DNA of 17,209 bases from a virus. The notes under the pieces are model-generated. The model searched no databases. It was given only the letters and a program-made list of their open reading frames with translations, and was not told the origin of the DNA. Both the position numbers and the translations under genes were made by a program. The DNA is taken from UHGV virus genome UHGV-0341595, one strand, 5' to 3'. Numbering within the stretch: the stretch's first letter is position 1; the number at the start of each line of letters is the position of its first letter. Shown piece by piece: positions 2,158 through 15,911 of the stretch.

Positions 2158-2988
2158 ACCGGACTCCTCCTGCGATCCCTTCTGATACTGTCATCAGCAT
2201 TACGTCATCCTCCGTCATGTCCGCCACATCCGGGGAAGCGGGGATAACTTCATTCCCGTCCGGGCCAAAGCGGACGCCTCCGGCAAGCCCTGCCGCTTTC
2301 TGCATCAGCACATCATCTTCAGGCTCTTCGTCAGCCTCGCGCCGGTTCAGCAGACTGAAATCCAGCGGATGCATATCCGGCTCGCTGAAAAACAGGCTGA
2401 GTACGGTGTACGTCAGCCCGGAAAAGTGCATATCCAGCAGAACATCATGAAAATAATGGGTACTGTAAAAGCGGTGCCAGTCGGCATACTCCGTGGATGA
2501 CATCCCGGCAAGCATGGCGCGCCAGTCGGGTCGCCCCATCTCACGCGCCAGTTTCAGGGCAAAACTCAGCTCACCGTCGAACACTTTCCCGCAGAAACAG
2601 GCTCTGCTGGCCCGGCGTCATCTGCCTGTTCAGGTGCATCATTCACAACAAACTCAGACATACCGGACAGACGCATTACCACATTTTCAGCCTGAGCAAT
2701 TGCCTCTGTGGGCCAGGTGGTAAGCACTTCCTGCTCAATTTGTTTAACGGCTTCATTCATGGACGGCATCTTTGTCTTCTGCGGATGGCTATGCCACAGG
2801 GACATCGCCACCAGAAAAGCACCGGTTCTGACGAGATCTTCCACGCTCACCTGTCGATTGAGACTGGATCCCGCCTGTTCTGCCTGTCGTTTCAGCAGGG
2901 CGAGATGCTCAATTCGCTGCAGGGCTGACAGTTCAGAAAGCGTGACGCTCACACCGTTATATTCAAATGATTCGGTTTTCAGGAACAT
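2150..2988 (-). CDS. T: Tail assembly chaperone G-T fusion made by programmed -1 ribosomal frameshift; the T portion (2150..2584) has no start of its own
   Basis: Minus-strand heptamer G GGA AAG (plus-strand 2584..2590, ctttccc) lies in the G frame 6 codons before the G stop. The -1 frame continues as VFDGELSFALKLAREMGRPDWRAMLAGMSSTEYADWHRFY... to a stop at 2150, 7 nt before the H start. Same architecture as lambda G/GT. Confidence 0.85.
2566..2988 (-). CDS. G: Tail assembly chaperone G (lambda gpG-like), 140 aa
   Basis: ORF track 2566..2988 (-), MFLKTESFEYNGVSVTLSELSALQRIEHLALLKRQAEQ...; same length and position (between V and T/H) as lambda G; ends 18 nt past the slippery heptamer. Confidence 0.9.
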   Translation of the reverse strand: MFLKTESFEYNGVSVTLSELSALQRIEHLALLKRQAEQAGSSLNRQVSVEDLVRTGAFLVAMSLWHSHPQKTKMPSMNEAVKQIEQEVLTTWPTEAIAQAENVVMRLSGMSEFVVNDAPEQADDAGPAEPVSAGKCSTVS

Positions 2989-3003
2989 CGCTGACTCTCC
3001 GGA

Positions 3004-3744
3004 TTAACTGTCGGTGACGGTGATTTCTGCAACCACAGCAAGTTCACCATTACCGGATACAACCGGAATGTTGACCTTGCCTGCAGCAACACCTTTCACG
3101 GTGATGGTCATACCACTGACCGACACGGTGGCTTTTGTTTTATCCGCAGACACCGCACGGAAGCTCTTGTCGGTTGCGCCTTCCGGCTGGAATGCCACGG
3201 TCAGCGTGGTGCTCTGCCCTTTCACCACCGAAGTGCTGGCAGGCGTCACGGTCATGCCGGTTGCCGCTGTTACCGTGCTGCGATCTTCTGCCATCGACGG
3301 ACGTCTCACGTTGGTGACTTTCACCGTGCGGGTGATCACTTCCTTCGCCGTCACCGCCTTACCGATACTGCTGACCCAGCCGCGGAACACATCGACCGTG
3401 CCGTTCGGGAAGCGGATTTTATAGGCACGGGTATCCCCTTCATTAAACCACGCCAGCAGCGCCTGCTGCCCCTGCTCTCCGGGCATCCACGCCAGCGTGA
3501 AGCTGGTATCTCCGGCAGATTTCTGCCCCTGCCCGGTCGCAGTCCAGTCCGCATCTTCATCATCGAGATAGCTGTCGTCATAGGACTCAGCGGTCAGTTC
3601 GCCGGGCGTCAGGTCTTTAACTTTAGCCAGACGCGACCAGTCAACGTCTGAAAGCGGGTTCGCATAAGGGTCACCGTTCCCCTTATAAACCCACAGTGTG
3701 GTCCCGGCCCCTTTCACCGGCATTACTGGATTTGGTACAGGCAT
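3004..3744 (-). CDS. V: Major tail tube protein V (lambda gpV-like) with C-terminal Ig-like domain
   Basis: ORF track 3004..3774. I place the start at the internal ATG 3744..3742 ([22 protein letters not shown]...), which has a GAGGA RBS and lies 8 nt after the U stop; gives 246 aa. C-terminus is T/S/V-rich, typical of the V Ig-like domain. Confidence 0.9.
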
Positions 3745-3751
3745 ATCGTCC

Positions 3752-4147
3752 TCACATTTCATAGGTAATGACATAAGTCAGATCGGCTGAACTCCACAGG
3801 CCCGCATCATCGTCGCGCCGGTAGTCATAGCCACTGGCCACCATACTGGTGATCAAATCTGACAGTGCCGGGACATCGCTCATCACCGGATAAATCCGGG
3901 ACTCCATCCACGAATCCAGCTCTGAATCCGGCACCTGAGCAGGCAGGAAAACTTCAATATGCAGCTCCGCCTGCCAGGTATCACTGTCCAGCTCTTCGCC
4001 CGTGTATTCAGCGCCGGTGAGATAAACGGCAATTGCCGGAAAATCCGCCTCATCAAAAACAGCGGGGCGACCATCAAAAAGCGTCGCCCCGGTGTCATGC
4101 TTCTCCAGTGCATCCAGTACGGCTGCACGGAGTTCAGTATGTTTCAT
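3752..4147 (-). CDS. U: Tail terminator protein U (lambda gpU-like), 131 aa
   Basis: [72 protein letters not shown]...; ATGA start/stop overlap with Z; lambda order Z-U-V. Confidence 0.92.
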
Positions 4148-4722
4148 CGCTTTATTACCATTCTCAGTTGATGCTGCAGCGCATAGCCCAGCTCTTTCGG
4201 AAGACGTTCACGCCGTATCCGTTCAATATTCTGTTTAAACGCCGTGGTAAGCGGCACCGCCATCGGGATTTTCACCACATCAATGGGGTAACGGTTTTTC
4301 CCGGCCACACGCTGCATGACATGCCACCGGCCATTTTTCAGTTGCTGAATAAACGCGCCGGGAATACGACGGTTTCCCACCACAAGCACGCTGCCGCCAC
4401 CTTTCAGGGATGAACGCTGCCCCTTTTTACGACGTCTGCGGCGGGAAAGGACAACCCGCGCGTTACCCAGCTTGATTACGGGCAAATCCCCCCGGTTAAC
4501 CCTGATTCTGGCCTGCGGATTTTTGACCGTGGCCCTTTTCAGCCTGGCCCTTTCCTTTACCAGTTTCCGGCGTACCTTTGTCTCACGGGCAACCTGTGAC
4601 GCAGACTGCGATATCGCGGATGACGCAACGCGGTTAATGGCCATTGCGGCGGCACCAGGCACCGCCGTTTTGCTGATACGGCTGAGGTTTTCAACGGCCT
4701 GCTCAAGACCTTTTATGGCCAT
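4144..4722 (-). CDS. Z: Tail completion protein Z (lambda gpZ-like), 192 aa
   Basis: ORF track 4144..4722; length and position between FII and U as in lambda; basic RRRRRKKGQR stretch. Confidence 0.88.
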   Translation of the reverse strand: MAIKGLEQAVENLSRISKTAVPGAAAMAINRVASSAISQSASQVARETKVRRKLVKERARLKRATVKNPQARIRVNRGDLPVIKLGNARVVLSRRRRRKKGQRSSLKGGGSVLVVGNRRIPGAFIQQLKNGRWHVMQRVAGKNRYPIDVVKIPMAVPLTTAFKQNIERIRRERLPKELGYALQHQLRMVIKR

Positions 4723-4733
4723 ACATCCCCCTT

Positions 4734-5087
4734 TCAGCGGCGACGGTTAACGGCAGGCGGCACGCCACGCCCAAGCCAGAGATGACAGCTTCCGCCATCA
4801 TCCGGCGAAATCCGGTCCACCCAGAAGTTTTCCTCGCCGATGGTCAGTGTGTCTCCACGCCGCAGCTGCCGCACATCATCAGTCCGGACAAACAGGGACG
4901 GGCTGGAGCCTTCAACGCGCACCCCCTGTCCGGCATAGCTGATATTTTCAGGGTCATCAAAAACACCACGTATCACAGCACCGGACAGCTCACCGGATGT
5001 CATGGTGGCTGACGTTCCCATGTACCCGCGTATCGTTTCATCGGCGCGGGCAATGGCAGCATCGAACAGGTTATCGGAATCAGCCAC
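4734..5087 (-). CDS. FII: Head-tail joining protein FII (lambda gpFII-like), 117 aa
   Basis: MADSDNLFDAAIARADETIRGYMGTSATMTSGELSGAVIRGVFDDPENISYAGQGVRVEGSSPSLFVRTDDVRQLRRGDTLTIGEENFWVDRISPDDGGSCHLWLGRG...; same length and position as lambda FII. Confidence 0.9.
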   Translation of the reverse strand: MADSDNLFDAAIARADETIRGYMGTSATMTSGELSGAVIRGVFDDPENISYAGQGVRVEGSSPSLFVRTDDVRQLRRGDTLTIGEENFWVDRISPDDGGSCHLWLGRGVPPAVNRRR

Positions 5088-5098
5088 AGCGCCTCCCG

Positions 5099-5494
5099 TT
5101 ATTGCATTCTGGCCAGGCCATGTTCTGTCATTTCGGCTGCCACACCGGCAGAGACACGAAACGCCGTTCCCGGCAGCACAAATGCCACAGGCTCATCCCG
5201 CGTGGCGTGAAGTGCATCAGTATGCAGCGTCACCAGTGCCACGACCGTGACCAGAGCAGCCGTATCAATCACGGTATCCGGCTGCGCTGATACCACCTCA
5301 TTTTCATGTCCGGTCAGCGCATTTTCCGGGCTGACAGATGTGTCCTGACCGGCAGCGTCATCCGTGTCATCAAGCTCCTCTTCCAGCTCTGCCACACGGA
5401 GCACCAGTTCTTCTTTCGTCCCCGTCAGGCTGACATCACGGTTCAGTTGCTCACCCAGCACCTGAAGACGGGCAATCAGTTCATCTTTCGTCAT
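5099..5494 (-). CDS. FI: DNA packaging/head assembly protein FI (lambda gpFI-like)
   Basis: ORF track 5099..5533. I place the start at ATG 5494..5492 (MTKDELIARLQVLGEQLNRDVSLTGTKEEL...), preceded by GGAGGA; this gives ~131 aa, matching lambda FI. The upstream 13 codons of the track ORF are probably not translated. Confidence 0.85.
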   Translation of the reverse strand: MTKDELIARLQVLGEQLNRDVSLTGTKEELVLRVAELEEELDDTDDAAGQDTSVSPENALTGHENEVVSAQPDTVIDTAALVTVVALVTLHTDALHATRDEPVAFVLPGTAFRVSAGVAAEMTEHGLARMQ

Positions 5495-5535
5495 GGACTC
5501 CTCCACAGAGAGAAAATGGCCCCGAAGGGCCATGA

Positions 5536-6324
5536 TTACGCCAGTTGTACGGACACGAACGCATCAGGATCAGCCAGCAGCATCAGCGGTGCTGACTGAA
5601 TCATGGTGAACTCACGCGCCGGATCGCCGGTGGTCACCCAGTTTTTCGGGTAGCGGGCAGAGGCGTTAATACCTTCGCGCTGTGCGTCCGCATCCTGAAT
5701 GCAGCCATAGGTGCGCAGACCGCGTGCCTGAGTGTTCCCCAGCACCATCGTGTTGTCCGGCAGGAAGTTCTTTTTGACGTCGTTTTCCACGTACTGTCCG
5801 GAATACACGACGATCGCCGTATCGCCATACATCCCCTTATAGGACACCGCTTCGCCCAGGTCTTTTACCGCTGTCTCCAGCTCGGAATTAGAGCCGCGAC
5901 GGGTATCCAGCTTCTCCTTGACGGCTTTGAAGGAACGGAACAGCGCCCAGCCTTTCGGATCAAACACGATGATATTCACCACGCCGCTGGCGTTCAGCGC
6001 GTAGGCTTCGATATCGTCGGTCGGGTCATACGTGGACTTGTCACGCTTGCTCCACTCCGTGCCGCCGGACTGCGTGATGTTGTTCGCCGCACTGCGGCCC
6101 ATATCCACCTCAACCGGATCGAAGGCTTCACCGGTCATGGTGTATTTGCCCTTGAGCACGGCAGAAACTGCCTGCATCTCTTCGACCTGAGCAATGGCCA
6201 GCTCTTCGTCACGCATGTTCTGCAGGATGATGCGACGGCGGCGGTAAGCCGGGTCCGCCAGATTCTGCGGATCTTCATCCGGCAGGCGACGCAGGGTCAT
6301 CTGCGGATTCACCTCATGCTTCGG
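5536..6324 (-). pseudogene. E: Major capsid protein E (lambda gpE-like), 5-prime truncated: only the C-terminal ~260 codons remain
   Basis: Translation ...PKHEVNPQMTLRRLPDEDPQNLADPAYRRRRIILQNMRDEELAIAQVEEM ... PLMLLADPDAFVSVQLA corresponds to lambda E from about residue 82 to the end. The frame hits TAG at 6327..6325 exactly where composition switches to AT-rich. No E N-terminus upstream; the track ORF starts at an internal GTG. Confidence 0.85.
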
Positions 6325-6352
6325 CTACATGAGTCAATCCCGAAAGAACTAT

Positions 6353-6382
6353 TTGATTTCACTTAGCTTTGTGGTTTATATA
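6353..6382 (+). promoter_or_regulatory. Candidate sigma70-type promoter for the DUF262-HEPN cassette
   Basis: TTGATT (6353..6358), 18-nt spacer, TATATA (6377..6382), about 100 nt upstream of the DUF262 ATG in an AT-rich non-coding stretch. Pattern match only. Confidence 0.3.
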
Positions 6383-6480
6383 TCTACGCAACTCCTATCA
6401 CTGCAATACTTTCTGCAATACAGATATGTGTAGTGAGGACTTGTCTAAAAACCATATTCACGAAGAAAAAGGATGACACG

Positions 6481-7644
6481 ATGCAACCAGAAGATTATGA
6501 AGAAAAGCAATACGAGGATGAGCCAGAATCCTATCCAATTGATGAGTTTCAACTTACTACTACGCCCAATGATTTTAATATAATCACAATTATAAGTTTT
6601 ATTAAATCAAAAGTTTTTAAAATCCCTAACTTTCAAAGGCATTATGTTTGGGATATCAAACGAGCATCAAAACTCATTGAATCTCTTTTAATAGGCCTTC
6701 CTATACCTCAAATATTTTTATATGAACAAGATAAAAATGAATTTTTAGTGATAGATGGTCAGCAGAGATTAATGACCCTTTATTACTTTGTAAATGGTGT
6801 ATTCCCTAGAAAAGAGAAACGTTCTGAACTGAGAAAAATCTTTGAAGATAATGGAAACATTCCAGAAAACATTCTTCACAATGATGAATACTTCACAAAG
6901 TTCAACCTAAAACTTGATGGTCTATCAGACACCCAAAAAAACAAGTTTAATGGGAAAAACTATGAAACATTAAACGAATTTCAAACCACTTTAAATCTGG
7001 CAACCATACGAAATATGGTAATCAAACCGGTTGCACAAGATTCGGAAGATGGTGCAATGTTTGAAATATTTAACCGCCTAAATAGTGGGGGAATGAACCT
7101 TTCTCCTCAAGAAATTCGTATGAGTTTATATCACTCAGACTTTCTTTCAAATCTTGTTTCATTGAATGAAAACAAGACATGGAGAAAAATTCTTTCAAAA
7201 AATGTTGTTGACATGCGATTGAGTGATATTGAAGCGATATTGCGCACATTTGCTATGTCCCTTTTTACATCTCAATACAAAAGCTCAGTTAGCGGTTTTT
7301 TGAACAATTTCTCAAATTATGCAAAAAACTACGACACTAAAGACATAATTTTATTTAGTAATATATGGAATGAATTTATGGATAGTGTTGATGGAATTGA
7401 TGAAATCAATTTCAGAACTGGTGGGAATCGTATGAGTATAACTTTATTTGAGTCAATTTTTTATGCTGCAACTTATGACTCATTTAAAGATAAAGATCTA
7501 AAAATAAGACAAGTGACGGTGAATTATATCGATAAGCTTAAAAATGATCCTGAATTTCTGACATTTAGTACTGATAAAACAACAAGAAGAGAGCATGTAA
7601 TTGGACGTCTAGAACGTGCAAGAACAATTTTGGAGGGAATGTAA
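6481..7644 (+). CDS. DUF262 (ParB/Srx-like N-terminal nuclease/NTPase) domain protein, ~387 aa
   Basis: ORF track 6433..7644; likely start ATG 6481 (MQPEDYEE...) with AAGGA 7 nt upstream. Contains the hallmark DUF262 motif FLVIDGQQRLMTLYYF and a second conserved block FEIFNRLNSGGMNLSPQEIR. Low-GC codon usage unlike the flanking phage genes. Confidence 0.8.
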   Translation: MQPEDYEEKQYEDEPESYPIDEFQLTTTPNDFNIITIISFIKSKVFKIPNFQRHYVWDIKRASKLIESLLIGLPIPQIFLYEQDKNEFLVIDGQQRLMTLYYFVNGVFPRKEKRSELRKIFEDNGNIPENILHNDEYFTKFNLKLDGLSDTQKNKFNGKNYETLNEFQTTLNLATIRNMVIKPVAQDSEDGAMFEIFNRLNSGGMNLSPQEIRMSLYHSDFLSNLVSLNENKTWRKILSKNVVDMRLSDIEAILRTFAMSLFTSQYKSSVSGFLNNFSNYAKNYDTKDIILFSNIWNEFMDSVDGIDEINFRTGGNRMSITLFESIFYAATYDSFKDKDLKIRQVTVNYIDKLKNDPEFLTFSTDKTTRREHVIGRLERARTILEGM

Positions 7645-7648
7645 AATA

Positions 7649-8197
7649 ATGGAGGATATGGGATATACTTCTATTGAAAGTATGTTTAATAACTATAAGT
7701 GTTATTATGATTTTCTTCTAACTCATAATGAGATTAGTTTTGCTAATGATTACAAATCACAATTTTCAAAAGTAATGCTATTAGCATGTGCTAGCTATTT
7801 TGAAACTTTAGTTGTAACTAAGATACATTGTATGCTTAACCCAAGCCAATGTAATCTTACACACGATTTTATCGATAATAAGGCCCTAACCAGGCAGTAT
7901 CATACACTCTTTGATTGGAAAAAAAGGAATGCAAACCAGTTTTTTTCCTTTTTTGGCCCAAAATTTAAAGAGTTTATGATTGAGAAGGTAAAATCAAGCA
8001 CAGAGTTGACCAAGTCTATCTCTGATTTTATGGAAATCGGAGAGCTAAGAAATAAATTAGCACATAATAATTATGCTACTTTTGTATTAGAAAGCACAGC
8101 TGAAGAGATTTATAATAAATTTTTAAATGCACATTCATTTGTCTCTCAACTAGATACGTTCAGTACACAGTTTAGAGAGCAAATTGGTGAACAGTAA
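7649..8197 (+). CDS. Small HEPN-motif protein (putative RNase-type effector), ~182 aa, coupled to the DUF262 gene
   Basis: ORF track 7616..8197; likely start ATG 7649 (MEDMGYTSIE...), 5 nt after the DUF262 stop, with GGAGGG upstream. C-terminal ELRNKLAHNNY fits the HEPN R-x4-6-H motif. I recall HEPN-like nucleases of this type being annotated adjacent to DUF262 proteins. Family assignment is by motif only. Confidence 0.6.
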   Translation: MEDMGYTSIESMFNNYKCYYDFLLTHNEISFANDYKSQFSKVMLLACASYFETLVVTKIHCMLNPSQCNLTHDFIDNKALTRQYHTLFDWKKRNANQFFSFFGPKFKEFMIEKVKSSTELTKSISDFMEIGELRNKLAHNNYATFVLESTAEEIYNKFLNAHSFVSQLDTFSTQFREQIGEQ

Positions 8198-8235
8198 TAG
8201 TTTATCTCCAGCAAAAAAAATAACTTGCAAATAAT

Positions 8236-8262
8236 AAAAGCGGTCGCGTGACCGCTTTTTTC
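8236..8262. terminator. Bidirectional rho-independent terminator
   Basis: aaaaGCGGTCgcgtGACCGCtttttt: 6-bp GC-rich stem, 4-nt loop, A-run before and T-run after, 39 nt downstream of the HEPN stop. Confidence 0.75.
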
Positions 8263-8409
8263 TATTTATCATTGCTATTTTCCTTTATTATTTCAGCAAT
8301 TGACATAACTAAGGCGTCTGCTTTATTTCTAGTCCTATCAAACATATCTCTAATTACATCAATATAATAATGTTCCTCAAAAATATTTACGTCTGACAAA
8401 AGTATTGCA

Positions 8410-8456
8410 CAACTCTTGCCCAAAATGTCAGCCAGTTGATCTTTGTTGACTTCCAT
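8410..8456 (-). pseudogene. nu1: 5-prime fragment of terminase small subunit gene nu1 (first ~15 codons only)
   Basis: The track ORF 8262..8456 starts MEVNKDQLADILGKS, matching the lambda Nu1 N-terminus MEVNKKQLADIFGAS as I recall it, then diverges into AT-rich sequence with no further Nu1 similarity. The 64-aa ORF is most likely a chimeric remnant. Confidence 0.7.
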
Positions 8457-8676
8457 TGTTCATTCCACGGACAAAAACAGAGAAAGGAAACGACAGAGGC
8501 CAAAATGCCCGTTTTCAGCGCCTGTCATTTCCTTTCTTTTCAGGGGGTATTTTAAATAAAAACATAAAGTTACGGCGAAGAAGAACGGAAATGCCTTAAA
8601 CCGGAAAATTTCCATAAATAGAGAAAAACTGCGCGCCTGACGCCCCGTAGCCTGTCAGATCGCCGGAAAGGACCCG
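8457..8676 (-). other. Lambda-type cos site (cosQ-cosN-cosB), oriented with the minus strand
   Basis: The minus strand reads ...GGGTCCTTTCCGGCGATCTGACAGGCTACGGGGCGTCAGGCGCGCAGTTTTTCTCTATTTATGGAAATTTTCCGGTTTAAGGCATTTCCGTTCTTCTTCG...GAAAAGAAAGGAAATGACAGG...GGCCTCTGTCGTTTCCTTTCTCTGTTTTTGTCCGTGGAATGAACAATGGAAGTCAAC, near-collinear with the lambda left end/cos region as I recall it, ending at the nu1 start. cosN core is around 8630..8650. Confidence 0.75.
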
Positions 8677-8701
8677 CCAGCCAGAGCGGGCCCTAATTTC
8701 A

Positions 8702-9085
8702 TCAACCAATCAGCTTATAGCGACCATCCCGTGCATTGCGGCGTACACGCTCAATCTTGAGGCATAGCGCCGCATCTGGCTTTTTTGGGACAGGTACGCG
8801 GCAATATTCAGAAGCGCGAGGAATATTATTTATCCAGTCGATCACTTCACTTAAATACCAGGCCTTACGCCCTTCCGTAACCTGCACACGCTCCGGGAAC
8901 TCTCCACTAGCCTCAAGGTTTAGCAGTGTACGCCGACTCAGGGTTGTAATTTCCATCACCTGATTCATATCAACAAGGCGCTCGCTTAAACACATTTTGT
9001 CAGCGATAGCTTTTAATTCCTCTACAGCTGGATTCGGGTACATCATTTCGGCAATTGGCTTAAGGTCATTGTAATCATTCTGCAT
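8702..9085 (-). CDS. AlpA/MerR-like HTH domain protein, 127 aa, last gene of the E-like/D-like operon, abutting cos
   Basis: ORF track 8702..9085. Central segment MEITTLSRRTLLNLEASGEFPERVQVTEGRKAWYLSEVIDWI fits the AlpA-family HTH pattern. RBS AAGGGGGA 5 nt before the ATG; start is 11 nt after the D-like stop. Confidence 0.6.
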   Translation of the reverse strand: MQNDYNDLKPIAEMMYPNPAVEELKAIADKMCLSERLVDMNQVMEITTLSRRTLLNLEASGEFPERVQVTEGRKAWYLSEVIDWINNIPRASEYCRVPVPKKPDAALCLKIERVRRNARDGRYKLIG

Positions 9086-9096
9086 TGTATCCCCCT

Positions 9097-9438
9097 TTAC
9101 ACACGAGCCAGCGGCTGAACAGAAATACCTGAGCCAACAAACGCTGCAATCTTTACTGACAGTTCTTTTACAGACTCAGGCCAGTTCAGAGCATCAACAT
9201 TTAAGACACCTGTCTTATAGACCTGAGCCTGTGTTTTTTTCGCGGTGTCGATTTGTACAGCGGAAACATAAACCGCTTTACCTACGCTCGAACCATCCCA
9301 TACCACCAGTGCACCTGTTGCATCTTCCTGCATCAGTGGCGTAAATGCAGGAATTACCCCTTTATTAGCTGAAAATATCCCCAGCGTAGTCACCAGTGCT
9401 TCAGTGCCAGCCATGAGTTCAGTGTAATGAGTAGCCAT
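9097..9438 (-). CDS. Head decoration protein, lambda gpD family (divergent), 113 aa
   Basis: TPLMQEDATGALVVWDGSSVGKAVYVSA...KTGVLNVDALNWPESV...KIAAFVGSGISVQP parallels lambda D (TPLMLDTSSRKLVAWDG...LWPEA...AFAGTAISIV) in size and motif order. GGGGGAG RBS overlaps the E-like stop. Confidence 0.7.
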   Translation of the reverse strand: MATHYTELMAGTEALVTTLGIFSANKGVIPAFTPLMQEDATGALVVWDGSSVGKAVYVSAVQIDTAKKTQAQVYKTGVLNVDALNWPESVKELSVKIAAFVGSGISVQPLARV

Positions 9439-9447
9439 TGCTCCCCC

Positions 9448-10488
9448 TTAGCCAATGCGAACGGTAACAAAACGATTGATGCGGGCCGGTATTGGCTGTG
9501 GTGCTGAATGTGTCTGCACATATTCAATAGCCGGATCACCAGGCACAATATAGTTTTTCGGTGCAAGTTCGGCTTTAGTCAGCCCCATTCGGATTAGCTC
9601 CGGATCCTGAATACCGCCATAGGCGACAATCCCCTGAAGAGCCGTATTGCCAAGCACCATCAAATCAGGATCAAGGAAATGTTTTTCAGTTCCGTCCTCG
9701 TCGGTATAACGCCCGCTGTATACAACAATCGCAACATCGCCCATATACCCTTTAAAACTCACCGAATCACCAAGGTCTTTAAGAGCCGTTTCCAGTTCGG
9801 AATTAGAACCACGACGGGTATCCAGAGCCTCTTTTATCGCTCTGAATGAACGGTATTTCTTCCATACATTACCGCCCATAATGATGATATTAGTGACGCC
9901 CTCACTAAATTCTGCGTAGCTCTCAATATCATCATTTGGATCAAAAGTTTCTTTATCCTTACCTGACCACTCAGCACCGCCAGACTGAGTGATGATATTT
10001 TGTGGTTTAATATTCCAGTCCAGCTCATAACGTTCAATACCATCGCCCTCAATGATATTTTTCCCCGTTGTGATTGCCTGAACGGCAAGCCATTCAATAC
10101 GTGCACGAATAGCTTTAGCCTGATTTACAATCGCCTGTTTAACTTTAATATTACGCGCTCCAAAAGCATTGTATTGCTCAGGTGATACACCAGCAGGGCG
10201 CACAGCTAACTTATTTGGATCAATGCTGCTTTTCGGCTTCATATAGCCTGGACGAATTGTTTTTGATTCGTACCCTTCGTCACGTGAAACTTTACTACCC
10301 GCCATAGGAGAACAAAACGCTGCAATTGGGATATTTGGATCGTCGATTGTATCAAGAATAATATCGCGCGATTCAAACATTACCGAGCGAGTAAAAAACA
10401 AACTGGTAAACAACGCATTTAGTTGTTTTTGTACATCTACAGCATTAACCACCTGTACAAGCTGGGTAGGCGAATATAAATCAACCAT
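9448..10488 (-). CDS. Major capsid protein, lambda gpE family (divergent, apparently intact), ~346 aa
   Basis: ORF track 9448..10662 (404 aa). Similarity to lambda E starts near MRMVDLYSPTQLVQ; AAGAGG RBS favours ATG 10488 (alternative 10494). Shares long identical stretches with the truncated E in this window (DTRRGSNSELETA, AIVVYSG, ITQSGG) but is otherwise divergent. The first ~57 track codons are probably untranslated leader. Confidence 0.8.
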   Translation of the reverse strand: MVDLYSPTQLVQVVNAVDVQKQLNALFTSLFFTRSVMFESRDIILDTIDDPNIPIAAFCSPMAGSKVSRDEGYESKTIRPGYMKPKSSIDPNKLAVRPAGVSPEQYNAFGARNIKVKQAIVNQAKAIRARIEWLAVQAITTGKNIIEGDGIERYELDWNIKPQNIITQSGGAEWSGKDKETFDPNDDIESYAEFSEGVTNIIIMGGNVWKKYRSFRAIKEALDTRRGSNSELETALKDLGDSVSFKGYMGDVAIVVYSGRYTDEDGTEKHFLDPDLMVLGNTALQGIVAYGGIQDPELIRMGLTKAELAPKNYIVPGDPAIEYVQTHSAPQPIPARINRFVTVRIG

Positions 10489-10662
10489 ACGCATCCTCTT
10501 TGCATTCATTAAAAATAATTGTGGATATATGCTATCACCGATATTTGTCATGCGAATACATGCAACCGAGTGCAATGTTGTATAAAGTTTTGGGATAACA
10601 ACTTCAGCGCGGATAATTAGTGTTAATATCTTCACTCCCTTTGGCCGGGATTTATGTAGCAT

Positions 10663-10696
10663 GCCGGAAAATTTATTTTTTTCCGGCCTTTTTTAT
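10663..10696 (+). terminator. Hairpin with plus-strand intrinsic-terminator features
   Basis: GCCGGAAAA-tttattt-TTTTCCGGC followed by CTTTTTTATT on the plus strand, between the ssb stop and the E-like upstream region. There is no U-tract in the minus orientation, so it would stop transcription antisense to the capsid operon. Confidence 0.45.
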
Positions 10697-10705
10697 TGGC
10701 AATAT

Positions 10706-11155
10706 TTAAAACGGAATATCATCTCCCCATTGTTCATTATCTCCCACTGGTGGATGGCTTCCTTGCTGATCTGCCTGTTGTTTTGCTCTGTTCAGTGCGT
10801 CAGTAGCCTGACCCTGTTGACCTTTTTTGCCGCCCGGTCGCACCGTTCGCGCACTGATTACGCTGTCTGCGATAACCTGCCAGCCCTGCCGCGTTTCACC
10901 GTTCTGTCCAGTCCACTGGCTCACCTGCATATTACCCGCCACGCTCAGGAGTTCGCCTTTGTGATGCTTTGCCAGCGCGTCGGCTTGTCTGCCAAACGCC
11001 AGGACAGATAACCACATCGTCGCCTGACCGTCATCCGACTGACTGCAGGGCAGTGATACCGCCATACGCGCCAGCGTCATGGGGGTGCCCTTGCTGGTCT
11101 GTTTTGTCTGCGGGTCGTCCACCAACCGCCCGTAAACTGATATTTGCGCCGTCAT
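10706..11155 (-). CDS. ssb: Single-stranded DNA-binding protein (SSB-like), 149 aa
   Basis: N-terminal OB-fold pattern VYGRLVDDPQ...TLARMAV...WLSVLAFGRQADALAKHHKGELLSVAGNMQVSQWTGQNGETRQGWQV, a Gly/Gln-rich linker and the acidic C-terminal tip GDDIPF typical of bacterial/phage SSB. Confidence 0.8.
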   Translation of the reverse strand: MTAQISVYGRLVDDPQTKQTSKGTPMTLARMAVSLPCSQSDDGQATMWLSVLAFGRQADALAKHHKGELLSVAGNMQVSQWTGQNGETRQGWQVIADSVISARTVRPGGKKGQQGQATDALNRAKQQADQQGSHPPVGDNEQWGDDIPF

Positions 11156-11397
11156 GCTGCCTGCTCTCCGGACTTAATATTGATTGTTGTCACTTCCTCC
11201 GCTTCAGCAATCTCCCGTTCGGTCAGAGTGGCAAAGTTTGCAGCCGCCGTTGTCATGAATGCGCTAATCAGTTCGGGATGTGCTTTCGCGTATCCTTCCC
11301 CGGCGTTGCGGTCGATGATTTTTATCGACACCCTTAACCAGTGTTCCGTCAAATCAAGGGCGTGCGATTGTGATTTTTTTGTGTGCTTCGCTGTCAT
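11152..11397 (-). CDS. Hypothetical protein, 81 aa, translationally coupled to ssb
   Basis: ORF track; ATGA overlap with the ssb start; directly downstream of the iteron cluster. No recognisable motif. Confidence 0.45.
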   Translation of the reverse strand: MTAKHTKKSQSHALDLTEHWLRVSIKIIDRNAGEGYAKAHPELISAFMTTAAANFATLTEREIAEAEEVTTINIKSGEQAA

Positions 11398-11443
11398 AGG
11401 CTTTATCTCACAGCAGTAAATTAAAATTTTTGCGTTTTAACCC

Positions 11444-11680
11444 TTCACCTGTTCACCTTTTGATATTTTCTCTTTTAATTCATAATGTTAATGGGTGAAC
11501 AGTTTCACAAAAACTATTCACCAACTGTTCACCACTGTTCACCACTGTTCACCCTTGAAGCTCAATAAACAATCAAAAAGGTGAACAGTGAATAGTTTGG
11601 TGAACAGTTCATAAATAACTGTTCACCCTATAATATACTGATATAAAAGATATTTATGACAGGGTGAACAGTGGTGAACA
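11444..11680. repeat. Iteron cluster (putative replication origin): at least 10 perfect copies of TGTTCACC/GGTGAACA plus degenerate copies
   Basis: TGTTCACC at 11450, 11526, 11536, 11546, 11620; GGTGAACA at 11494, 11580, 11599, 11663, 11673; degenerate TATTCACC 11515 and GTGAATAG 11588. Lies just after the primase stop (11695). The octamer is the P4 type I iteron bound by P4 alpha in ori/crr, as I recall it. Confidence 0.8.
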
Positions 11681-11694
11681 GTTATTCCATAAGT

Positions 11695-13515
11695 TTAATT
11701 TTTGCTATCGTCATTAGTGACCGATACACATGATGGCATCCAGTCTTCTGATTCCTCCGTCAGTGTCACGTTTGAACGCAAACCGTGCTTCGTTTTCCGT
11801 TTCATATACTCCCTGCCATATTCCGCCATTGCCCCCGGCATATCTTTACCGAAGCGCGTCAGTGTTACAGGTTTACCAAACCCATGTGCCCTCATATAAG
11901 CCAGATAGGCATGATAGAGATACCTGCGTGGGCTGAATGGCACAATTTCAGCATTACCCACTAACAGGCCATCACACATTACCGATGCCATGAGATAGCC
12001 GCAGAAGTCCACCAGCGAATCCCCCTCTCGCTTTATCGCCAGTGCTTCTTCAGATTTCTGCTGCTCATATAACAGGCGTCTGGCTTCGTCCTGATCAGCA
12101 AACCGTGTAAGCAGATGGCGAATCACTACCGCCAGCTCACCTTCTATTTTTTCCGCCAGCATCGAATCGCGTTCGTTCTCCGGTACAACTTCCGAAAAAT
12201 TGAATATCACCCGACGACGTGAGATCCCCCCGCTGCGGTCACTGAATGACATGGCGTTATTGTTAACCGCCAGCACTACTGCCGGAATACGCGTTGAATA
12301 GGGGGCTTTGTGTTTCGGGTCAATTGCCACCTTGTCACCGCCTGTAATGGCCTTAATCCCTGCCCCATCACCAGCGTAGCGGGTCATATCCGGCATGATA
12401 ATCAGCGAAAAGCCAACCACTAACGCACGTTCCCTTGCATCTTCCAGCGCCTTCATGCTTGCTGATACTGTATTAGCCTTACCCGCCAGCATGGTGCAAA
12501 TCTCCGCCATCACACTTTTACCACTTCCCCCCGGCCCTGTTACCTCAATGAATAACTGCCAGTCGTACCGGTTCGCCAGCACCATGAATAATGCCGCCAG
12601 TACGCGATCTGCCTTGCGGTCATTCTCAGCCACCGAACGGCGCAACCACTTCCAGAAATTCGGCGCATGTGTTGCCAGCGTTTCCCCCTCTGCTGGTGGG
12701 CTGAAAGGTAATTCACTGGCAATTAACAACCAGTCGTTTTTGTTATGCTCCCGAAAATTACCAGTTCTGGTATCAAATACCCCGTTACTGAATCCAATCA
12801 GGTTACGGGCTGTATTCCCCATTACAGGCAAACTTAACTTCATGGTATCTACCGCCGATTTAATAGCGTTCTGCGAATAGCTGATCTCCGCATCAATGAA
12901 AATCTGCGCCATAGCACGCTGTAACTCTTTATCCTGAACCGGCTCCCATACAACGCCGTTGTAATGATGAACGGTGTCAGAGTCGGCATTGATTGCCAGT
13001 TCGCCGCCGTAATGTGCAAGGAGAACTTCACCGCGCTGGCTGGCCCCCATCTGATTCAACGCCAAAGATGAAGCACGCTCGTCATTTTTGCGCTCTGCCT
13101 TCTTCACTGGCAGTTCAATCACCAGACTTTCCCCATGCTCCGCTTCAGCTTTTAGGCCGACAAGGCGCGGAGTCCAGTCTTCAGGCTCTCGATCAACAAA
13201 GCTACGGTAACAACGTGCTTCCTTTACGCCTGCAATAGCAAGTAATGTCGCAACCTTCGTCAGACTTTTCTCTGCAATCTTTCCGGCACGATAAACACGC
13301 ACATAATGACGGCCTTCATCGATAATTTGCATATCATCCAGGTTTTCCAGTTGTTCCGTACCCAGAATGACTGGTGGTGTATCATCTGCTGCAATATGCT
13401 TACCTGCCCATTCATTCCATTCTTTTGCATGACTCCAGGCATCACTGCCAGCAAAAATGATGACTTCCGTCATTTTGTCGCGCGGTTGGTATTTTAAGTT
13501 CGGAGCACGTTTCAT
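11695..13515 (-). CDS. Replication initiator primase/helicase (P4 alpha-like; D5_N/SF3 NTPase type), 606 aa
   Basis: ORF track 11695..13515; strong GGAGG RBS 5 nt before the ATG; Walker A GPGGSGKS in the central region; size and position (after int-alpA, before iterons) typical of P4/PICI replication proteins. Confidence 0.8.
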   Translation of the reverse strand: MKRAPNLKYQPRDKMTEVIIFAGSDAWSHAKEWNEWAGKHIAADDTPPVILGTEQLENLDDMQIIDEGRHYVRVYRAGKIAEKSLTKVATLLAIAGVKEARCYRSFVDREPEDWTPRLVGLKAEAEHGESLVIELPVKKAERKNDERASSLALNQMGASQRGEVLLAHYGGELAINADSDTVHHYNGVVWEPVQDKELQRAMAQIFIDAEISYSQNAIKSAVDTMKLSLPVMGNTARNLIGFSNGVFDTRTGNFREHNKNDWLLIASELPFSPPAEGETLATHAPNFWKWLRRSVAENDRKADRVLAALFMVLANRYDWQLFIEVTGPGGSGKSVMAEICTMLAGKANTVSASMKALEDARERALVVGFSLIIMPDMTRYAGDGAGIKAITGGDKVAIDPKHKAPYSTRIPAVVLAVNNNAMSFSDRSGGISRRRVIFNFSEVVPENERDSMLAEKIEGELAVVIRHLLTRFADQDEARRLLYEQQKSEEALAIKREGDSLVDFCGYLMASVMCDGLLVGNAEIVPFSPRRYLYHAYLAYMRAHGFGKPVTLTRFGKDMPGAMAEYGREYMKRKTKHGLRSNVTLTEESEDWMPSCVSVTNDDSKN

Positions 13516-13799
13516 TTGTTACCTCCGGCAACTAACATTGCCCGAATTTTACGGATATAGCCTGCGGCACGCCTCTGATTATCTGTCTTGCAATTTTTTA
13601 CCAGAATGAAATCTCTTTCGAACTGCTGACGCGGCATAACACATTCAAAATCATAACCATCACGCAAATAAGAGACACGACGATCATCAACCGAAATAAT
13701 CTTTACCCGATAGCCATAGCTGTCTTTAAAAATATCCCCAAGGCTGATTTTTGAATGAGTTTGACCGCTGGCAATAAAGCCAGAAAATTTATTTTTCAT
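13512..13799 (-). CDS. Hypothetical protein, 95 aa, coupled to primase
   Basis: ORF track; stop overlaps the primase ATG (ATGA). No recognisable motif. Confidence 0.45.
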   Translation of the reverse strand: MKNKFSGFIASGQTHSKISLGDIFKDSYGYRVKIISVDDRRVSYLRDGYDFECVMPRQQFERDFILVKNCKTDNQRRAAGYIRKIRAMLVAGGNK

Positions 13800-13802
13800 T
13801 TT

Positions 13803-14027
13803 TTATTCTCCGGTATAGCTCTGGTCGTGTATTTTTATAGCTTCATCCAGCTCTTTGATGACAGGATCAAGTAACGTAATTAACGCTCCAGCTAAATTAG
13901 CATCCCGTTCATCGTGTTCCGCATTTGTTGTCCCATCAAGCCAGGTTGATAAGATTTCTCGCATATTTTTGCCACAAACGAGCGCGTTTTCAGCATGTGT
14001 CAGCACTTTAAAATAAAGATCATTCAT
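13803..14027 (-). CDS. Hypothetical protein, 74 aa
   Basis: ORF track; tightly packed in the same operon (3-nt gap to the next gene). No recognisable motif. Confidence 0.4.
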   Translation of the reverse strand: MNDLYFKVLTHAENALVCGKNMREILSTWLDGTTNAEHDERDANLAGALITLLDPVIKELDEAIKIHDQSYTGE

Positions 14028-14385
14028 GGCACACCTCCTGACGAATACGGGCAGCGAATATCATCACGTAGCCAGTTGGGGATTGCAGCCGGGCTTCCTG
14101 TTCGCTGGCGGCCTCGATGTGTATTACGCGTGGTTGTGCGGTGCTCAGGGCGATAAAACGCCAGATGAAATTGTTTTCGCATTTCTGAATAAACAGCGTG
14201 TTTTCTTCACGCCCTTTCCAGAAAGCCGCAGTATAGCCCATCTCCTTAACCATCTTGCGGGCATCAACCAGCGTGTCAGCGGCTACATGTACCGTAGTTG
14301 CTCCATCTGCCATGCGGTCGTGGTGTAGTGCCAGAAAGGTGTATATAAATTTAGGGTGAGTTTGGGTATGCTGTGTTCCAGCCAT
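14020..14385 (-). CDS. Hypothetical protein, 121 aa, first gene of the replication-side operon
   Basis: ORF track; 8-nt overlap with the downstream ORF; preceded by a palindromic regulatory region. No recognisable motif. Confidence 0.45.
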   Translation of the reverse strand: MAGTQHTQTHPKFIYTFLALHHDRMADGATTVHVAADTLVDARKMVKEMGYTAAFWKGREENTLFIQKCENNFIWRFIALSTAQPRVIHIEAASEQEARLQSPTGYVMIFAARIRQEVCHE

Positions 14386-14415
14386 AATCGTTACCTCATT
14401 TAACGGGTTGGTTAG

Positions 14416-14448
14416 ACGCCTCGATGGTGTTCCCGCACGTCGAGGCGT
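14416..14448. promoter_or_regulatory. 9-bp inverted repeat hairpin in the leader of the minus-strand operon
   Basis: ACGCCTCGA (14416..14424) and TCGAGGCGT (14440..14448) with a 15-nt loop, followed on plus by TGCATTTTCC. Could be an attenuator/terminator or a protein-binding site. Confidence 0.4.
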
Positions 14449-14468
14449 TGCATTTTCCTAAACACGTA

Positions 14469-14695: not shown

Positions 14696-14708
14696 CAGAT
14701 AATATTTC

Positions 14709-14741: not shown

Positions 14742-14770
14742 CTATGCAGATTTTTAGTTCAAAGAATTTA

Positions 14771-15910: not shown

Positions 15911-15911
15911 G

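What the first reader, a model, noticed from the sequence alone, without database searches (positions are those of the whole stretch)
8457..8676. Lambda-type cos site with an apparently variant cosN core
The cosQ-side and cosB-side flanks closely track the lambda cos region as I recall it. The 12-nt position of the lambda cohesive end (GGGCGGCGACCT) reads GGGCGTCAGGCG here, and the adjacent segment is CGCAGTTTTTCT rather than CGCGGGTTTTCG. If real, the element has a related but distinct cohesive end, or a cos that lambda terminase recognises but cleaves poorly. This bears on which helper can package it.
Basis: partly seen in the sequence, partly recalled or inferred. Interest (0 to 1): 0.45.

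Follow-up and report, generated by a model that had tools for sequence, protein, structure and literature searches.

The report
Satellite cos site with variant sticky end
This is the DNA-packaging (cos) site of a small phage satellite that sits inside the capsid gene of a lambda-like prophage; it keeps every lambda cos signal but has a different 12-base sticky end from its helper, a pattern typical of this satellite family and probably still cut by the helper's ordinary terminase.

Summary
On the minus strand, window 8677..8442 is 91-93% identical to lambda-type cos (E=9e-96). At the overhang position it reads GGGCGTCAGGCG, against lambda GGGCGGCGACCT (differences at bp 6, 8, 9, 10, 12), followed by CGCAGTTTTTCT against CGCGGGTTTTCG.

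The site does not belong to a phage. It belongs to an ~11-kb helper-embedded PICI of the published '11capE' type, inserted in gene E of a lambda-like prophage. Similarity to lambda starts exactly at cosQ (GGGTCCT). The CG dinucleotides flanking the nick sites, the cosN-cosB spacing, R3-I1-R2-R1 and a 12-codon Nu1 stub are all retained.

This overhang marks the satellite family:
- 25 of 26 satellites in the first collection carry it, across several cosB/terS modules.
- The helper prophage carries the canonical overhang in 7 of 7 complete genomes; 24 of 30 helper/satellite pairs on viral contigs are mismatched.

A few genuine lambda-like prophages also use this overhang. Nu1 and gpA do not co-vary with the overhang allele. 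Published lambda genetics shows bp 7-12 tolerate change. Most likely this is a functional cos cut by an ordinary lambda-type terminase, giving ends that fit each other but not the helper's. This copy is probably immobile, because an IS66 element interrupts its integrase. It is a new variant of a known kind, of moderate interest.

The parts
8669..8675 (-). cosQ heptamer GGGTCCT (lambda bp -30..-24), the packaging-termination signal. Homology to phage cos starts here.
   Evidence: The per-position table shows satellite and phage sequences unrelated at bp -45..-32 and matching from bp -31 onward. The identity of the lambda cosQ heptamer is from my own knowledge of lambda bp 48473-48479. Its conservation among lambda-like phages is stated in PMC4669245.
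8632..8647 (-). cosN: the 12-nt overhang position GGGCGTCAGGCG (8645..8634) with the conserved CG dinucleotides flanking both nick positions (8647-8646 and 8633-8632). It differs from lambda at bp 6, 8, 9, 10 and 12.
   Evidence: Alignment. Allele survey. Conservation of the flanking CG is described in PMC4669245.
8596..8631 (-). The remainder of the cosN-to-R3 interval (lambda bp 15-50), which contains the I2 segment (bp 18-50). Spacing is unchanged. Changes private to this satellite type lie at bp 16 (G>A), 18 (G>T), 24 (G>T) and 34 (A>G, which shortens the A4T4 tract).
   Evidence: bp 16 A in 0 of 87 phages, bp 24 T in 0 of 87, bp 34 G in 0 of 87. No indels: the ATG offset is 234 in all 16 satellites and in 87 of 89 phages. 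I2 properties are from PMC4856287.
8581..8596 (-). R3 (lambda bp 50-65), AGGCATTTCCGTTCTT. It has one change, G54A, outside the bp 55-63 TerS contact core.
   Evidence: The extent of R3 and its contact core are from PMC9026076. The same G54A occurs in a helper prophage cos (L187).
8538..8580 (-). I1 region (IHF site and intrinsic bend) between R3 and R2, lambda-like with changes at bp 71, 73 and 80.
   Evidence: The position of I1 between R3 and R2 is from PMC9026076 and PMC4856287.
8522..8537 (-). R2 (inverted R element), AGAAAGGAAATGACAG, with one change (bp 119 C>T), which is the same relative position as the R3 change.
8481..8496 (-). R1, CTGTCGTTTCCTTTCT, identical to lambda.
8262..8456 (-). 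A 64-aa ORF that is a vestige of the small terminase gene. Only the first ~12 codons (MEVNKDQLADI.) are Nu1-like; the rest is unrelated. It has no Pfam or PDB match.
   Evidence: Relatives carry a full chimeric TerS or their own TerS at this position.
8702..9085 (-). AlpA-family winged-HTH gene (127 aa) that abuts cosQ. It is 100% conserved in most family members (down to ~79% in the divergent L145), whichever cosB/terS module follows. It is not an Rpp relative by sequence.
   Evidence: Pfam PF05930, E=7.6e-9. PDB 8c3t AlpA, E=2e-9, with no Rpp hit. Conservation.
6328..17069 (-). The satellite itself, an HE-PICI of the 11capE type. On the minus strand it carries int, HTH, a TIR effector, Icd-like, DUF4222, D5-type primase, SSB, major capsid, head decoration, AlpA-like and cos. 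On the plus strand it carries the cargo genes DUF262/GmrSD_N and HEPN.
   Evidence: Family described in PMC10111431. The att core lies at 6318-6327.
5536..6312 (-). 3' fragment of the helper prophage's major capsid gene E, split by the satellite insertion. Window 1..6312 holds the helper's head-tail and tail genes.
   Evidence: Annotated as 'major capsid protein, missing N-terminus' in all six composites whose annotation was read at this point.
17070..17209 (.). End of an IS66-family element (ISCro1) inserted at about codon 22 of the satellite integrase.

Best explanation
Window 8421..8677 (minus strand) is the packaging site of a helper-embedded phage satellite (HE-PICI, 11capE type) inserted in the major capsid gene of a lambda-like prophage.

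It is a complete lambda-architecture cos. It has cosQ, a 12-bp staggered-nick site flanked by CG/CG, I2 with unchanged spacing, R3-I1-R2-R1, and the dead stub of a Nu1 gene.

This satellite type encodes neither TerS nor Rpp, so the helper's own Nu1 would bind its lambda-like cosB and position the helper's gpA on cosN (inferred). Nicking would leave 5'-GGGCGTCAGGCG overhangs (inferred). The two ends of a satellite concatemer unit (about 4 x 11 kb per lambda head) would fit each other. They would mismatch the helper's GGGCGGCGACCT ends at 5 of 12 positions.

The variant overhang is a lineage allele of the satellite family, not decay and not a helper-specificity determinant. Lambda-type terminase reads the nick-flanking bases, the left half of cosN and the geometry set by cosB, and is largely indifferent to bp 7-12.

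In this particular copy an IS66 insertion in the integrase probably prevents excision, so the cos is intact but the element is likely stranded.
For: Shown directly:
- Sequence and coordinates.
- Similarity to 40+ lambda-like phages at E=9e-96.
- Satellite gene content and insertion in gene E. The element is 97.7% identical to the published type element in NRG857c (PMC10111431).
- Homology to phage sequence begins exactly at cosQ, and there are no indels through to the Nu1 start.
- The R3 core bp 55-63, the R2 core and R1 are unchanged.

The allele marks the family:
- 25 of 26 satellites sharing the junction carry it.
- It is linked to at least three or four different cosB/terS modules.
- About 142 of 5426 complete E. 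coli genomes carry this satellite-type junction/cos region, from varied hosts and countries.

The terminase is not specialised:
- Identical Nu1 proteins occur with alleles A, B and C.
- Among 59 gpA sequences there is no fixed difference between allele classes.
- Prophages L171 and L172 (uninterrupted Nu1-A-W-B-C-D..FI..V, with gene-E-sized spacing between D and FI) and L126 use this allele or a one-base derivative. For L171 and L172, gpA is ~99% identical to that of a canonical-overhang helper.
- One satellite cosB/TerS class carries alleles A, B and C.

Helper and satellite differ: 7 of 7 complete genomes and 24 of 30 viral-contig pairs.

Established knowledge:
- cosN is functionally asymmetric: bp 7-12 tolerate change, TerL-lambda uses the N15 cosN equally well, and the flanking CG and cosQ are conserved (PMC4669245).
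- TerL has low sequence specificity and is positioned by TerS bound to cosB (PMC9026076).
Against: - No ends have been sequenced and no cleavage assay exists for this overhang.
- G6T lies in the sensitive left half and is G in 85 of 87 phage sites.
- A34G lies inside the I2 bp 30-35 segment, whose 6-bp replacement is lethal in lambda (PMC4856287), and bp 34 is A in 87 of 87 phages. Efficiency could therefore be reduced.
- The authors of the family paper could not detect virions from the type composite (PMC10111431).
- The prophages carrying the allele are predicted, not isolated. No deposited phage genome has it.
- Many of the satellite copies are near-identical, so the counts are not independent events.
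Confidence: 0.75

Rival explanations
1. Attenuated cos. The site is recognised by lambda-type terminase, but G6T (left half of cosN) and/or A34G (I2) make cleavage or the post-cleavage step clearly less efficient than at the helper's cos. This may be a tuned trait or a tolerated cost. It is compatible with the main explanation and differs only in degree.
For: Bp 6 is G in 85 of 87 phage sites and bp 34 is A in 87 of 87, yet both are changed here. Left-half cosN mutations are severe in lambda (G2C about 10-fold; PMC4669245). The I2 re30-35 replacement is lethal (PMC4856287). All three satellite cos classes disturb the bp 34-37 A-tract.
Against: The allele is nearly fixed in a widespread family with variable cargo and varied helpers. 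Complete prophages use it with standard terminase. G6T also occurs alone in a second satellite lineage, which argues for tolerance. Single-base effects at bp 6 or 34 are unknown.
Confidence: 0.2
2. Helper-restricted cos. Only rare lambda-like phages whose terminase has co-evolved with the GGGCGTCAGGCG overhang can cut it, so the resident canonical-overhang prophage is not the packaging helper.
For: A few prophages do carry the same allele (L126, L172). The type composite gave no detectable virions (PMC10111431).
Against: There is no covariation of Nu1 or gpA with the allele: shared identical Nu1, gpA up to 99.5-99.84% identical across classes, and the only partly associated columns are residues 9 and 21 next to cos. 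The same satellite TerS/cosB class carries alleles A, B and C. Satellites are embedded in canonical-overhang helpers in most pairs. TerL-lambda shows no cosN specificity towards the N15 allele (PMC4669245).
Confidence: 0.04
3. Decaying relic. The cos-like block is a non-functional remnant of a captured phage segment and the core changes are drift.
For: The adjacent Nu1 gene is reduced to a 12-codon stub. This copy's integrase is broken by IS66. Relative E04 has three IS elements next to its cos.
Against: The retained block starts exactly at cosQ and keeps every known functional subsite and the exact spacing. The overhang is invariant across satellites whose flanks and cosB modules differ. The changes avoid the CG flanks, bp 1-5, bp 11 and the R cores. 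Drift would not produce one discrete allele shared by dozens of elements and by complete prophages.
Confidence: 0.04

Closest known systems
Bacteriophage lambda cos (cosQ-cosN-I2-cosB)
   Same: The architecture, order, orientation and spacing are the same. cosQ is GGGTCCT. CG flanks both nick positions. Overhang bp 1-5, 7 and 11 match. R1 is identical and the R3 and R2 cores are unchanged. The Nu1 start lies at the same offset. Identity is 90.6% over 235 nt.
   Different: The overhang differs at bp 6, 8, 9, 10 and 12. There are private changes at bp 16, 18, 24, 34, 54, 80, 119, 126 and 140. No functional Nu1 or A genes follow. The sequence left of cosQ is satellite DNA, not phage DNA.
Natural cosN variants of lambda-like phages: N15 and phiD326 (bp 9, 12), Gifsy-1 (bp 8, 9, 11), mEp213/LLS (GGGCGGCGCGCT), and here PhiR46_1/YDC107_1 (GGGCGGAAGGCG)
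   Same: Variation is concentrated in the right half, with the left half, the CG flanks and cosQ conserved (PMC4669245, PMC12315714). The right half AGGCG is shared with the PhiR46_1 allele.
   Different: There are more changes (5 of 12) than in any variant I could find described, and one of them is a left-half change (G6T). The allele is carried mainly by satellites, not phages. I could not read the dedicated survey (Vahanian et al. 2017), so I cannot say whether this exact allele is listed there.
11capE / helper-embedded PICIs (Tommasini, Mageeney & Williams 2023, PMC10111431)
   Same: It is the same element type: 97.7% nucleotide identity to the NRG857c copy, the same insertion site in gene E, and the same gene order. 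The paper noted a 258-bp segment ~90% identical to the helper's cos at this position.
   Different: The paper does not mention cosN. The helper/satellite overhang mismatch, the family-wide allele, and the alternative cosB/terS modules are not described there. This copy also has different cargo (a TIR effector) and an IS66 insertion in int.
EcCICFT073-type cos PICIs with Rpp (Fillol-Salom et al. 2019, PMC6739421; Feiss et al. 2022, PMC9026076)
   Same: Both are Gram-negative cos-type satellites of lambda-like helpers, with cos lying after the late/capsid zone. Both depend on helper TerL.
   Different: The logic is the mirror image. Those PICIs keep a lambda-identical cosQ and cosN but have a foreign cosB read by an Rpp-TerS heterodimer. 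This element keeps a lambda-like cosB, has no Rpp detectable by sequence, and has a changed cosN overhang.
Satellite-encoded small terminase strategy (pac-type SaPIs)
   Same: Relatives of this element encode their own Nu1-family TerS with a matching non-lambda cosB (L117 type), or a chimeric TerS with a Nu1-like N-terminus and a divergent C-terminus (L157 type).
   Different: The window's element has lost terS. The system is cos-type, not headful pac packaging.

Membership tests
Lambda-type cos site | cosQ heptamer about 24-30 bp left of the nick site | tested here: met
   GGGTCCT at 8675..8669, at the same spacing as in lambda/DE3 and 87 phage sites.
Lambda-type cos site | 12-bp nick interval flanked by conserved 5'-CG on both sides, with a conserved left half | tested here: met
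   The site reads tACG|GGGCGTCAGGCG|CGc. Bp 1-5 are identical to lambda; bp 6 is changed.
Lambda-type cos site | Canonical cohesive end GGGCGGCGACCT | tested here: not met
   Five of 12 positions differ (bp 6, 8, 9, 10, 12). This feature defines lambda itself, not the wider family, where variants are known (PMC4669245).
Lambda-type cos site | Exact cosN-to-R3 spacing, with an I2 segment | tested here: met
   No indels from cosN to the Nu1 start (offset 234 in all 16 satellites and 87 of 89 phages). The I2 sequence is conserved apart from bp 18, 24 and 34.
Lambda-type cos site | cosB = R3-I1-R2(inverted)-R1 | tested here: met
   All three R elements are present in the right order and orientation. 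R1 is identical, and R3 and R2 each have one change outside the core.
Lambda-type cos site | Staggered nicking by terminase, giving 12-nt 5' overhangs | not testable with these tools
   This needs end sequencing or a cos-cleavage assay.
Helper-embedded PICI (11capE type) | [quoted passage not shown] | tested here: met
   The 3' fragment of gene E lies at 5536..6312 and the 5' fragment lies beyond int in seven composites. All core genes are on the same strand as the helper's late genes.
Helper-embedded PICI (11capE type) | Integrase of the HE-PICI clade, plus alpA, primase and a capsid homologue, in about 11 kb | tested here: met
   Pfam hits. Integrase residues 23-407 are 99-100% identical to 50+ capE-embedded elements. 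The intact NRG857c relative is ~11.06 kb; the published type element is 11 kb (PMC10111431).
Helper-embedded PICI (11capE type) | Excision and helper-dependent transfer | not testable with these tools
   In this copy the integrase is interrupted by IS66 at about codon 22, so excision is doubtful.
Rpp-type cos PICI (EcCICFT073-like) | rpp gene next to cos | tested here: not met
   The gene left of cos is AlpA-family, with no hit to the solved Rpp structures. The ORF right of cos is a Nu1 stub with no match. This was a sequence-level test only.
Rpp-type cos PICI (EcCICFT073-like) | cosB unrelated to the helper's, with cosN nearly identical to lambda | tested here: not met
   Here cosB is lambda-like and cosN differs (compare PMC6739421 and PMC9026076).

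The most novel reading that the evidence does not exclude
The overhang mismatch is adaptive for a satellite that lives in cis with its helper.

In the unexcised composite concatemer the two cos sites are co-oriented. Satellite cos to the next helper cos is about 46 kb, which is a packable length. Helper cos to satellite cos is only 15 kb.

A satellite overhang that cannot anneal to the helper's (5 of 12 mismatches) would stop such hybrid chromosomes, or terminase-cut fragments, from cyclising into viable deletion derivatives. It would also make cosN a 'compatibility group' that keeps end-mediated exchange within the satellite gene pool.

The recurrent G6T change and the altered I2 A-tract in satellites would be part of the same tuning.
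Probability: 0.12. Interest if true: 0.6.

Novelty: new variant of a known kind. Interest (0 to 1): 0.36.

Why it matters
It refines how helper-embedded satellites are packaged. This type has neither Rpp nor its own TerS. It presents the helper's terminase with a near-perfect copy of the helper's cosB, but it produces different cohesive ends.

The natural data support the genetic conclusion that lambda terminase is indifferent to much of the overhang sequence. The same Nu1 and gpA occur with three overhang alleles, and one satellite TerS class also carries three. The data extend that conclusion to a five-position variant that includes one left-half change.

Practically, it predicts that:
- Satellite and helper DNAs from one lysate can be told apart by their ends.
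- Lambda-based cosmid or packaging systems should accept this cos.
- Hybrid helper/satellite chromosomes should be dead ends.

If the mismatch proved adaptive, it would be a new kind of satellite-helper isolation mechanism.

Tried and rejected
1. Rpp-type redirection. The HTH gene beside cos is AlpA-family, and neither it nor the 64-aa ORF matches the solved Rpp structures. cosB is lambda-like, so this was rejected for this element.

2. Specialised terminase. I tested covariation of the overhang allele with Nu1 and gpA and found none. My first gpA extraction failed on a start-codon regex and was redone.

3. 'Phage cos'. This was rejected once the annotation showed a satellite inside gene E.

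4. Full-text search for the 12-mers and their reverse complements returned only unrelated papers.

5. The dedicated survey of natural cosN variation (Vahanian et al. 2017, Virology) is not held. I therefore could not check whether this allele is already catalogued.

6. The deposited phage collection has no full-length match carrying this allele. The best hits are the two GGGCGGAAGGCG phages at 96.2%.

7. I considered the R3/R2 G>A changes as a specificity switch. I rejected this because both lie outside the bp 55-63 contact core and the same R3 change occurs in a helper prophage.

8. A search for published data on cosN bp 6 found nothing in the accessible papers.

The second scan (12th base not T) was complete.

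Full report
**1. The observation**

On the minus strand the window reads ...GGCGGGTCCTTTCCGGCGATCTGACAGGCTACG GGGCGTCAGGCG CGCAGTTTTTCTCTATTTATGGAAATTTTCCGGTTTAAGGCATTTCCGTTC.... I aligned it to a reference lambda (phage DE3, whose record annotates the 12-nt 'cos site'), to phage 2H10, to phage PhiR46_1 and to an E. coli prophage. The overhang position is GGGCGTCAGGCG where lambda has GGGCGGCGACCT. The next 12 nt are CGCAGTTTTTCT where lambda has CGCGGGTTTTCG. The block 8677..8442 matches 40 or more lambda-like phages at 90.6-93.2% identity, with E down to 9e-96. Two details need correcting. The homology continues past 8457 through the first 12 Nu1 codons. The left-hand similarity is short and begins exactly at the cosQ heptamer GGGTCCT (8675..8669).

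**2. What carries it**

The site is not in a phage genome in the ordinary sense.

- From about 6328 to 17069 lies an ~11-kb element. Its core genes are a tyrosine integrase, an HTH, a TIR effector, an Icd-like protein, DUF4222, a D5-type primase, SSB, its own E-family capsid protein, a D-family decoration protein and an AlpA-family protein, followed by the cos block. A DUF262/GmrSD_N plus HEPN cargo pair sits on the other strand.
- In seven complete E. coli genomes the same element splits gene E of a lambda-like prophage.
- It is 97.7% identical to the copy in strain NRG857c. That copy is the published type example of a 'helper-embedded PICI', 11capE (PMC10111431).

The paper noted a 258-bp, ~90%-identical cos-like segment shared with the helper and presumed cos packaging by the helper. 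It never mentions cosN.

**3. Anatomy**

I use lambda numbering, with bp 1 as the first overhang base, which is window 8645. Every known cos subsite is present:

| Subsite | Window coordinates | State |
|---|---|---|
| cosQ | 8675..8669 | GGGTCCT, as in lambda |
| CG flanks of both nick positions | 8647-8646, 8633-8632 | conserved |
| I2 | within 8631..8596 | spacing unchanged |
| R3 | 8596..8581 | one change, G54A, outside the bp 55-63 TerS contact core |
| I1 | 8580..8538 | lambda-like |
| R2 | 8537..8522 | one change, bp 119 |
| R1 | 8496..8481 | identical to lambda |
| Nu1 start | 8456 | at the usual offset |

There are no indels from cosN to the Nu1 start in any of 16 satellites, as in 87 of 89 phages. 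This matters because even a 3-bp change of the cosN-cosB distance is severely defective in lambda (PMC9026076). The ORF that follows keeps only ~12 Nu1-like codons and has no family or structure match. The gene to the left of cos is AlpA-family and shows no similarity to the solved Rpp proteins.

**4. How the overhang varies in nature**

I scanned IMG/VR with the flanks fixed and the 12 nt left free.

- A complete scan for sites whose 12th base is not T found 59 loci. The commonest allele was GGGCGGAAGGCG ('B', 36 sites in the pooled table), mostly followed by full 181-aa Nu1 genes. It is also the allele of the deposited phages PhiR46_1 and YDC107_1.
- The window's allele ('C') had 22 sites in the same pooled table, plus rare intermediates.

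Of the 22 allele-C sites, 20 lie directly after the satellite's AlpA-like gene. With a junction-based classifier, 25 of 26 satellites carry C and one carries B. About 142 of 5426 complete E. coli genomes carry this satellite-type junction/cos region. No deposited phage genome has allele C. However, three predicted prophages do. L172 and L171 (a one-base derivative) have uninterrupted Nu1-A-W-B-C-D..FI..V clusters with gene-E-sized spacing between D and FI. L126 has Rz upstream and Nu1/gpA downstream.

**5. Does the allele need a special terminase?**

No sign of it.

- Identical Nu1 proteins occur with alleles A, B and C.
- Among 59 full gpA sequences there is no fixed difference between allele classes. 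The closest A/B pair is 99.84% identical and the closest A/C pair 99.5%. The only partly associated columns are residues 9 and 21, which are encoded right next to cos.
- Within one satellite cosB/TerS class (L117 type), alleles C, A and B all occur.

This agrees with published lambda genetics:
- cosN is functionally asymmetric. Changes in bp 7-12 have minimal effect, while left-half changes such as G2C are severe.
- TerL-lambda uses the N15 cosN (bp 9 and 12 changed) as well as its own.
- Natural variants (N15, phiD326, Gifsy-1) cluster in the right half, and the flanking CG and cosQ are conserved (PMC4669245).
- TerL is not highly sequence specific and is positioned by TerS bound at cosB (PMC9026076).

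Four of the window's five changes (bp 8, 9, 10, 12) fall in the tolerant half, and the right half AGGCG is shared with allele B. Only G6T is a left-half change.

**6. Satellite versus helper**

In seven complete genomes (CD09, NRG857c, W284, HY220605, KW21, L1PEag1, E04) the satellite has allele C and the prophage around it has the canonical overhang.

Integrase relatives fetched with 10-kb flanks gave 30 helper/satellite pairs:

| Helper overhang | Satellite overhang | Pairs |
|---|---|---|
| canonical | C | 17 |
| GGGCGACGACCT | C | 1 |
| canonical | B | 2 |
| other mismatched combinations | | 4 |
| matched | | 6 |

The mismatch is therefore the rule but is not obligatory. Many copies are near-identical, so these are not independent events. 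A second satellite lineage (integrase ~92% identical, with a different junction and cosB) carries GGGCGTCGACCT, which is G6T alone.

**7. A modular cos-terS region**

The same left part (AlpA-like gene, junction GCTCTGGCTGGC, cosQ, allele C) is joined to different right parts:

- **Window type:** a lambda-like cosB with a Nu1 stub.
- **L139/L157/L175 type:** a lambda-like cosB with a chimeric 183-aa TerS. Its first ~110 residues are Nu1-like and its C-terminal domain is divergent.
- **L117 type:** a non-lambda cosB with its own divergent Nu1-family TerS.
- **L198 type:** a further R-type cosB.

All share bp 13-33. Divergence starts at about bp 34. The window type is thus the member that depends fully on the helper's TerS and TerL.

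**8. Most likely mechanism**

Shown: the sequence architecture, the family context, the allele distribution, and the absence of terminase covariation.

Inferred:
- The helper's Nu1 binds the lambda-like cosB, and gpA nicks at the conserved CG-flanked positions.
- Satellite concatemers are cut every fourth cos. Four units of ~11.06 kb give ~44 kb, within lambda's packaging window. This arithmetic uses L182 coordinates; concatemeric packaging of a related PICI is cited in PMC10111431.
- The resulting molecules carry 5'-GGGCGTCAGGCG ends, which fit each other but not the helper's.

Efficiency is unknown. G6T and A34G are invariant positions in phages. A34G lies in the I2 bp 30-35 segment, whose 6-bp replacement is lethal, whereas bp 18-29 are replaceable (PMC4856287). 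A moderate attenuation therefore cannot be excluded.

**9. This particular copy**

Every composite matches the window only as far as 17069. The last 140 nt are the end of an IS66-family element (ISCro1) inserted at about codon 22 of the integrase, as in strain E04. The cos is intact, but the element probably cannot excise, so the helper's capsid gene stays split.

**10. Comparison and novelty**

- The element family is known (PMC10111431).
- Lambda cos and natural cosN variation are known (PMC4669245; Vahanian et al. 2017, which I could not read).
- Rpp-type PICIs are the mirror image: a lambda-like cosN with a foreign cosB (PMC6739421, PMC9026076).

As far as I could determine from the accessible literature, the following are not described:
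- this five-position overhang allele;
- its near-fixation in capE-embedded satellites;
- the systematic mismatch with the embedding helper;
- the alternative cosB/terS modules behind one constant cosQ-cosN.

I rate it a new variant of a known kind, of moderate interest.

**11. Speculative reading**

In the unexcised composite, helper cos to satellite cos is 15.1 kb (L182). Satellite cos to the next helper cos is about 46 kb of the 61-kb composite (PMC10111431), which is a packable length. A 2-of-12 end mismatch already costs about fourfold in yield (PMC4669245). Five of 12 should block cyclisation of such hybrid chromosomes. The mismatch might therefore be selected in satellites that live in cis with their helper. 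The six matched pairs and the lack of phylogenetic correction keep this at low probability.

Noticed in passing
window 17070-17209 (and int ORF 15912-17135): The window ends in an IS66-family element (ISCro1) inserted at about codon 22 of the satellite integrase. The listed 407-aa ORF with a GTG start has an artefactual N-terminus. The same insertion is present in strain E04. This copy is probably unable to excise, which leaves the helper's capsid gene split.
   Followed up: yes
window 8702-9085 (-): This is a second AlpA-family gene (127 aa, with N- and C-terminal extensions beyond the AlpA domain), in addition to the int-proximal HTH at 15683-15910. It always abuts cosQ and is 100% conserved in most family members (~79% in the divergent L145) whichever cosB/terS module follows. 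Its role (regulator, excisionase-like, or packaging factor) is unknown.
   Followed up: partly
L117:5593-6144; L139, L157, L175 downstream of cos: Relatives of the satellite encode small terminases. One is a divergent Nu1-family TerS paired with a non-lambda cosB. The other is a chimeric 183-aa TerS whose first ~110 residues are almost identical to phage Nu1 and whose C-terminal (TerL-binding) domain is divergent. The window's 64-aa ORF is the remnant of such a gene.
   Followed up: partly
window 8609-8612 (lambda bp 34-37), and the same position in L117-type and L198-type satellites: The I2 A-tract AAAA is invariant at bp 34 in 87 phage cos sites. It is altered in all three satellite cos classes (GAAA, GCAT, CAAT). 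It lies at or next to the bp 30-35 segment that is essential in lambda.
   Followed up: partly
L231, L235, L237 (satellite cos ~8.0-8.3 kb downstream of int): A second capE-embedded satellite lineage (integrase ~92% identical, with a different junction and cosB) carries GGGCGTCGACCT, which is the G6T change alone. Some of its helpers have further overhang variants (GGGCGGCGTCCG, GGGCGGCGTCCT).
   Followed up: partly
window 14771-15646 (-), 6433-7644 (+), 7616-8197 (+): Defence-like cargo sits at two variable spots of the satellite. One is a CAP12/Pycsar-type TIR effector between the int-proximal HTH and the Icd-like gene; in other copies it is replaced by an Abi protein, DUF2971 or hypothetical genes. 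The other is a GmrSD_N (DUF262) plus RiboL-PSP HEPN pair to the right of cos.
   Followed up: partly
L265 (strain E04) 17340-20578: In the closest relative of the window's source, three IS elements (IS200C, ISKpn26, IS3 family) are packed between the HEPN gene and the AlpA-like gene, next to the satellite cos. The window lacks them.
   Followed up: no
window 6318-6327: The att core at the satellite/E-gene junction reads TGCTTCGGCT here, against TGCTTGGGTT in NRG857c. The 10-bp identity block reported for the type element therefore varies with the helper's E allele.
   Followed up: no
L144 and L148 (IMGVR_UViG_3300045988_113976, 56 kb): One metagenomic viral contig has the GGGCGGAAGGCG cos with a full Nu1 gene near both of its ends. 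This is consistent with a terminally redundant assembly of a circular or concatemeric phage genome that uses allele B.
   Followed up: no
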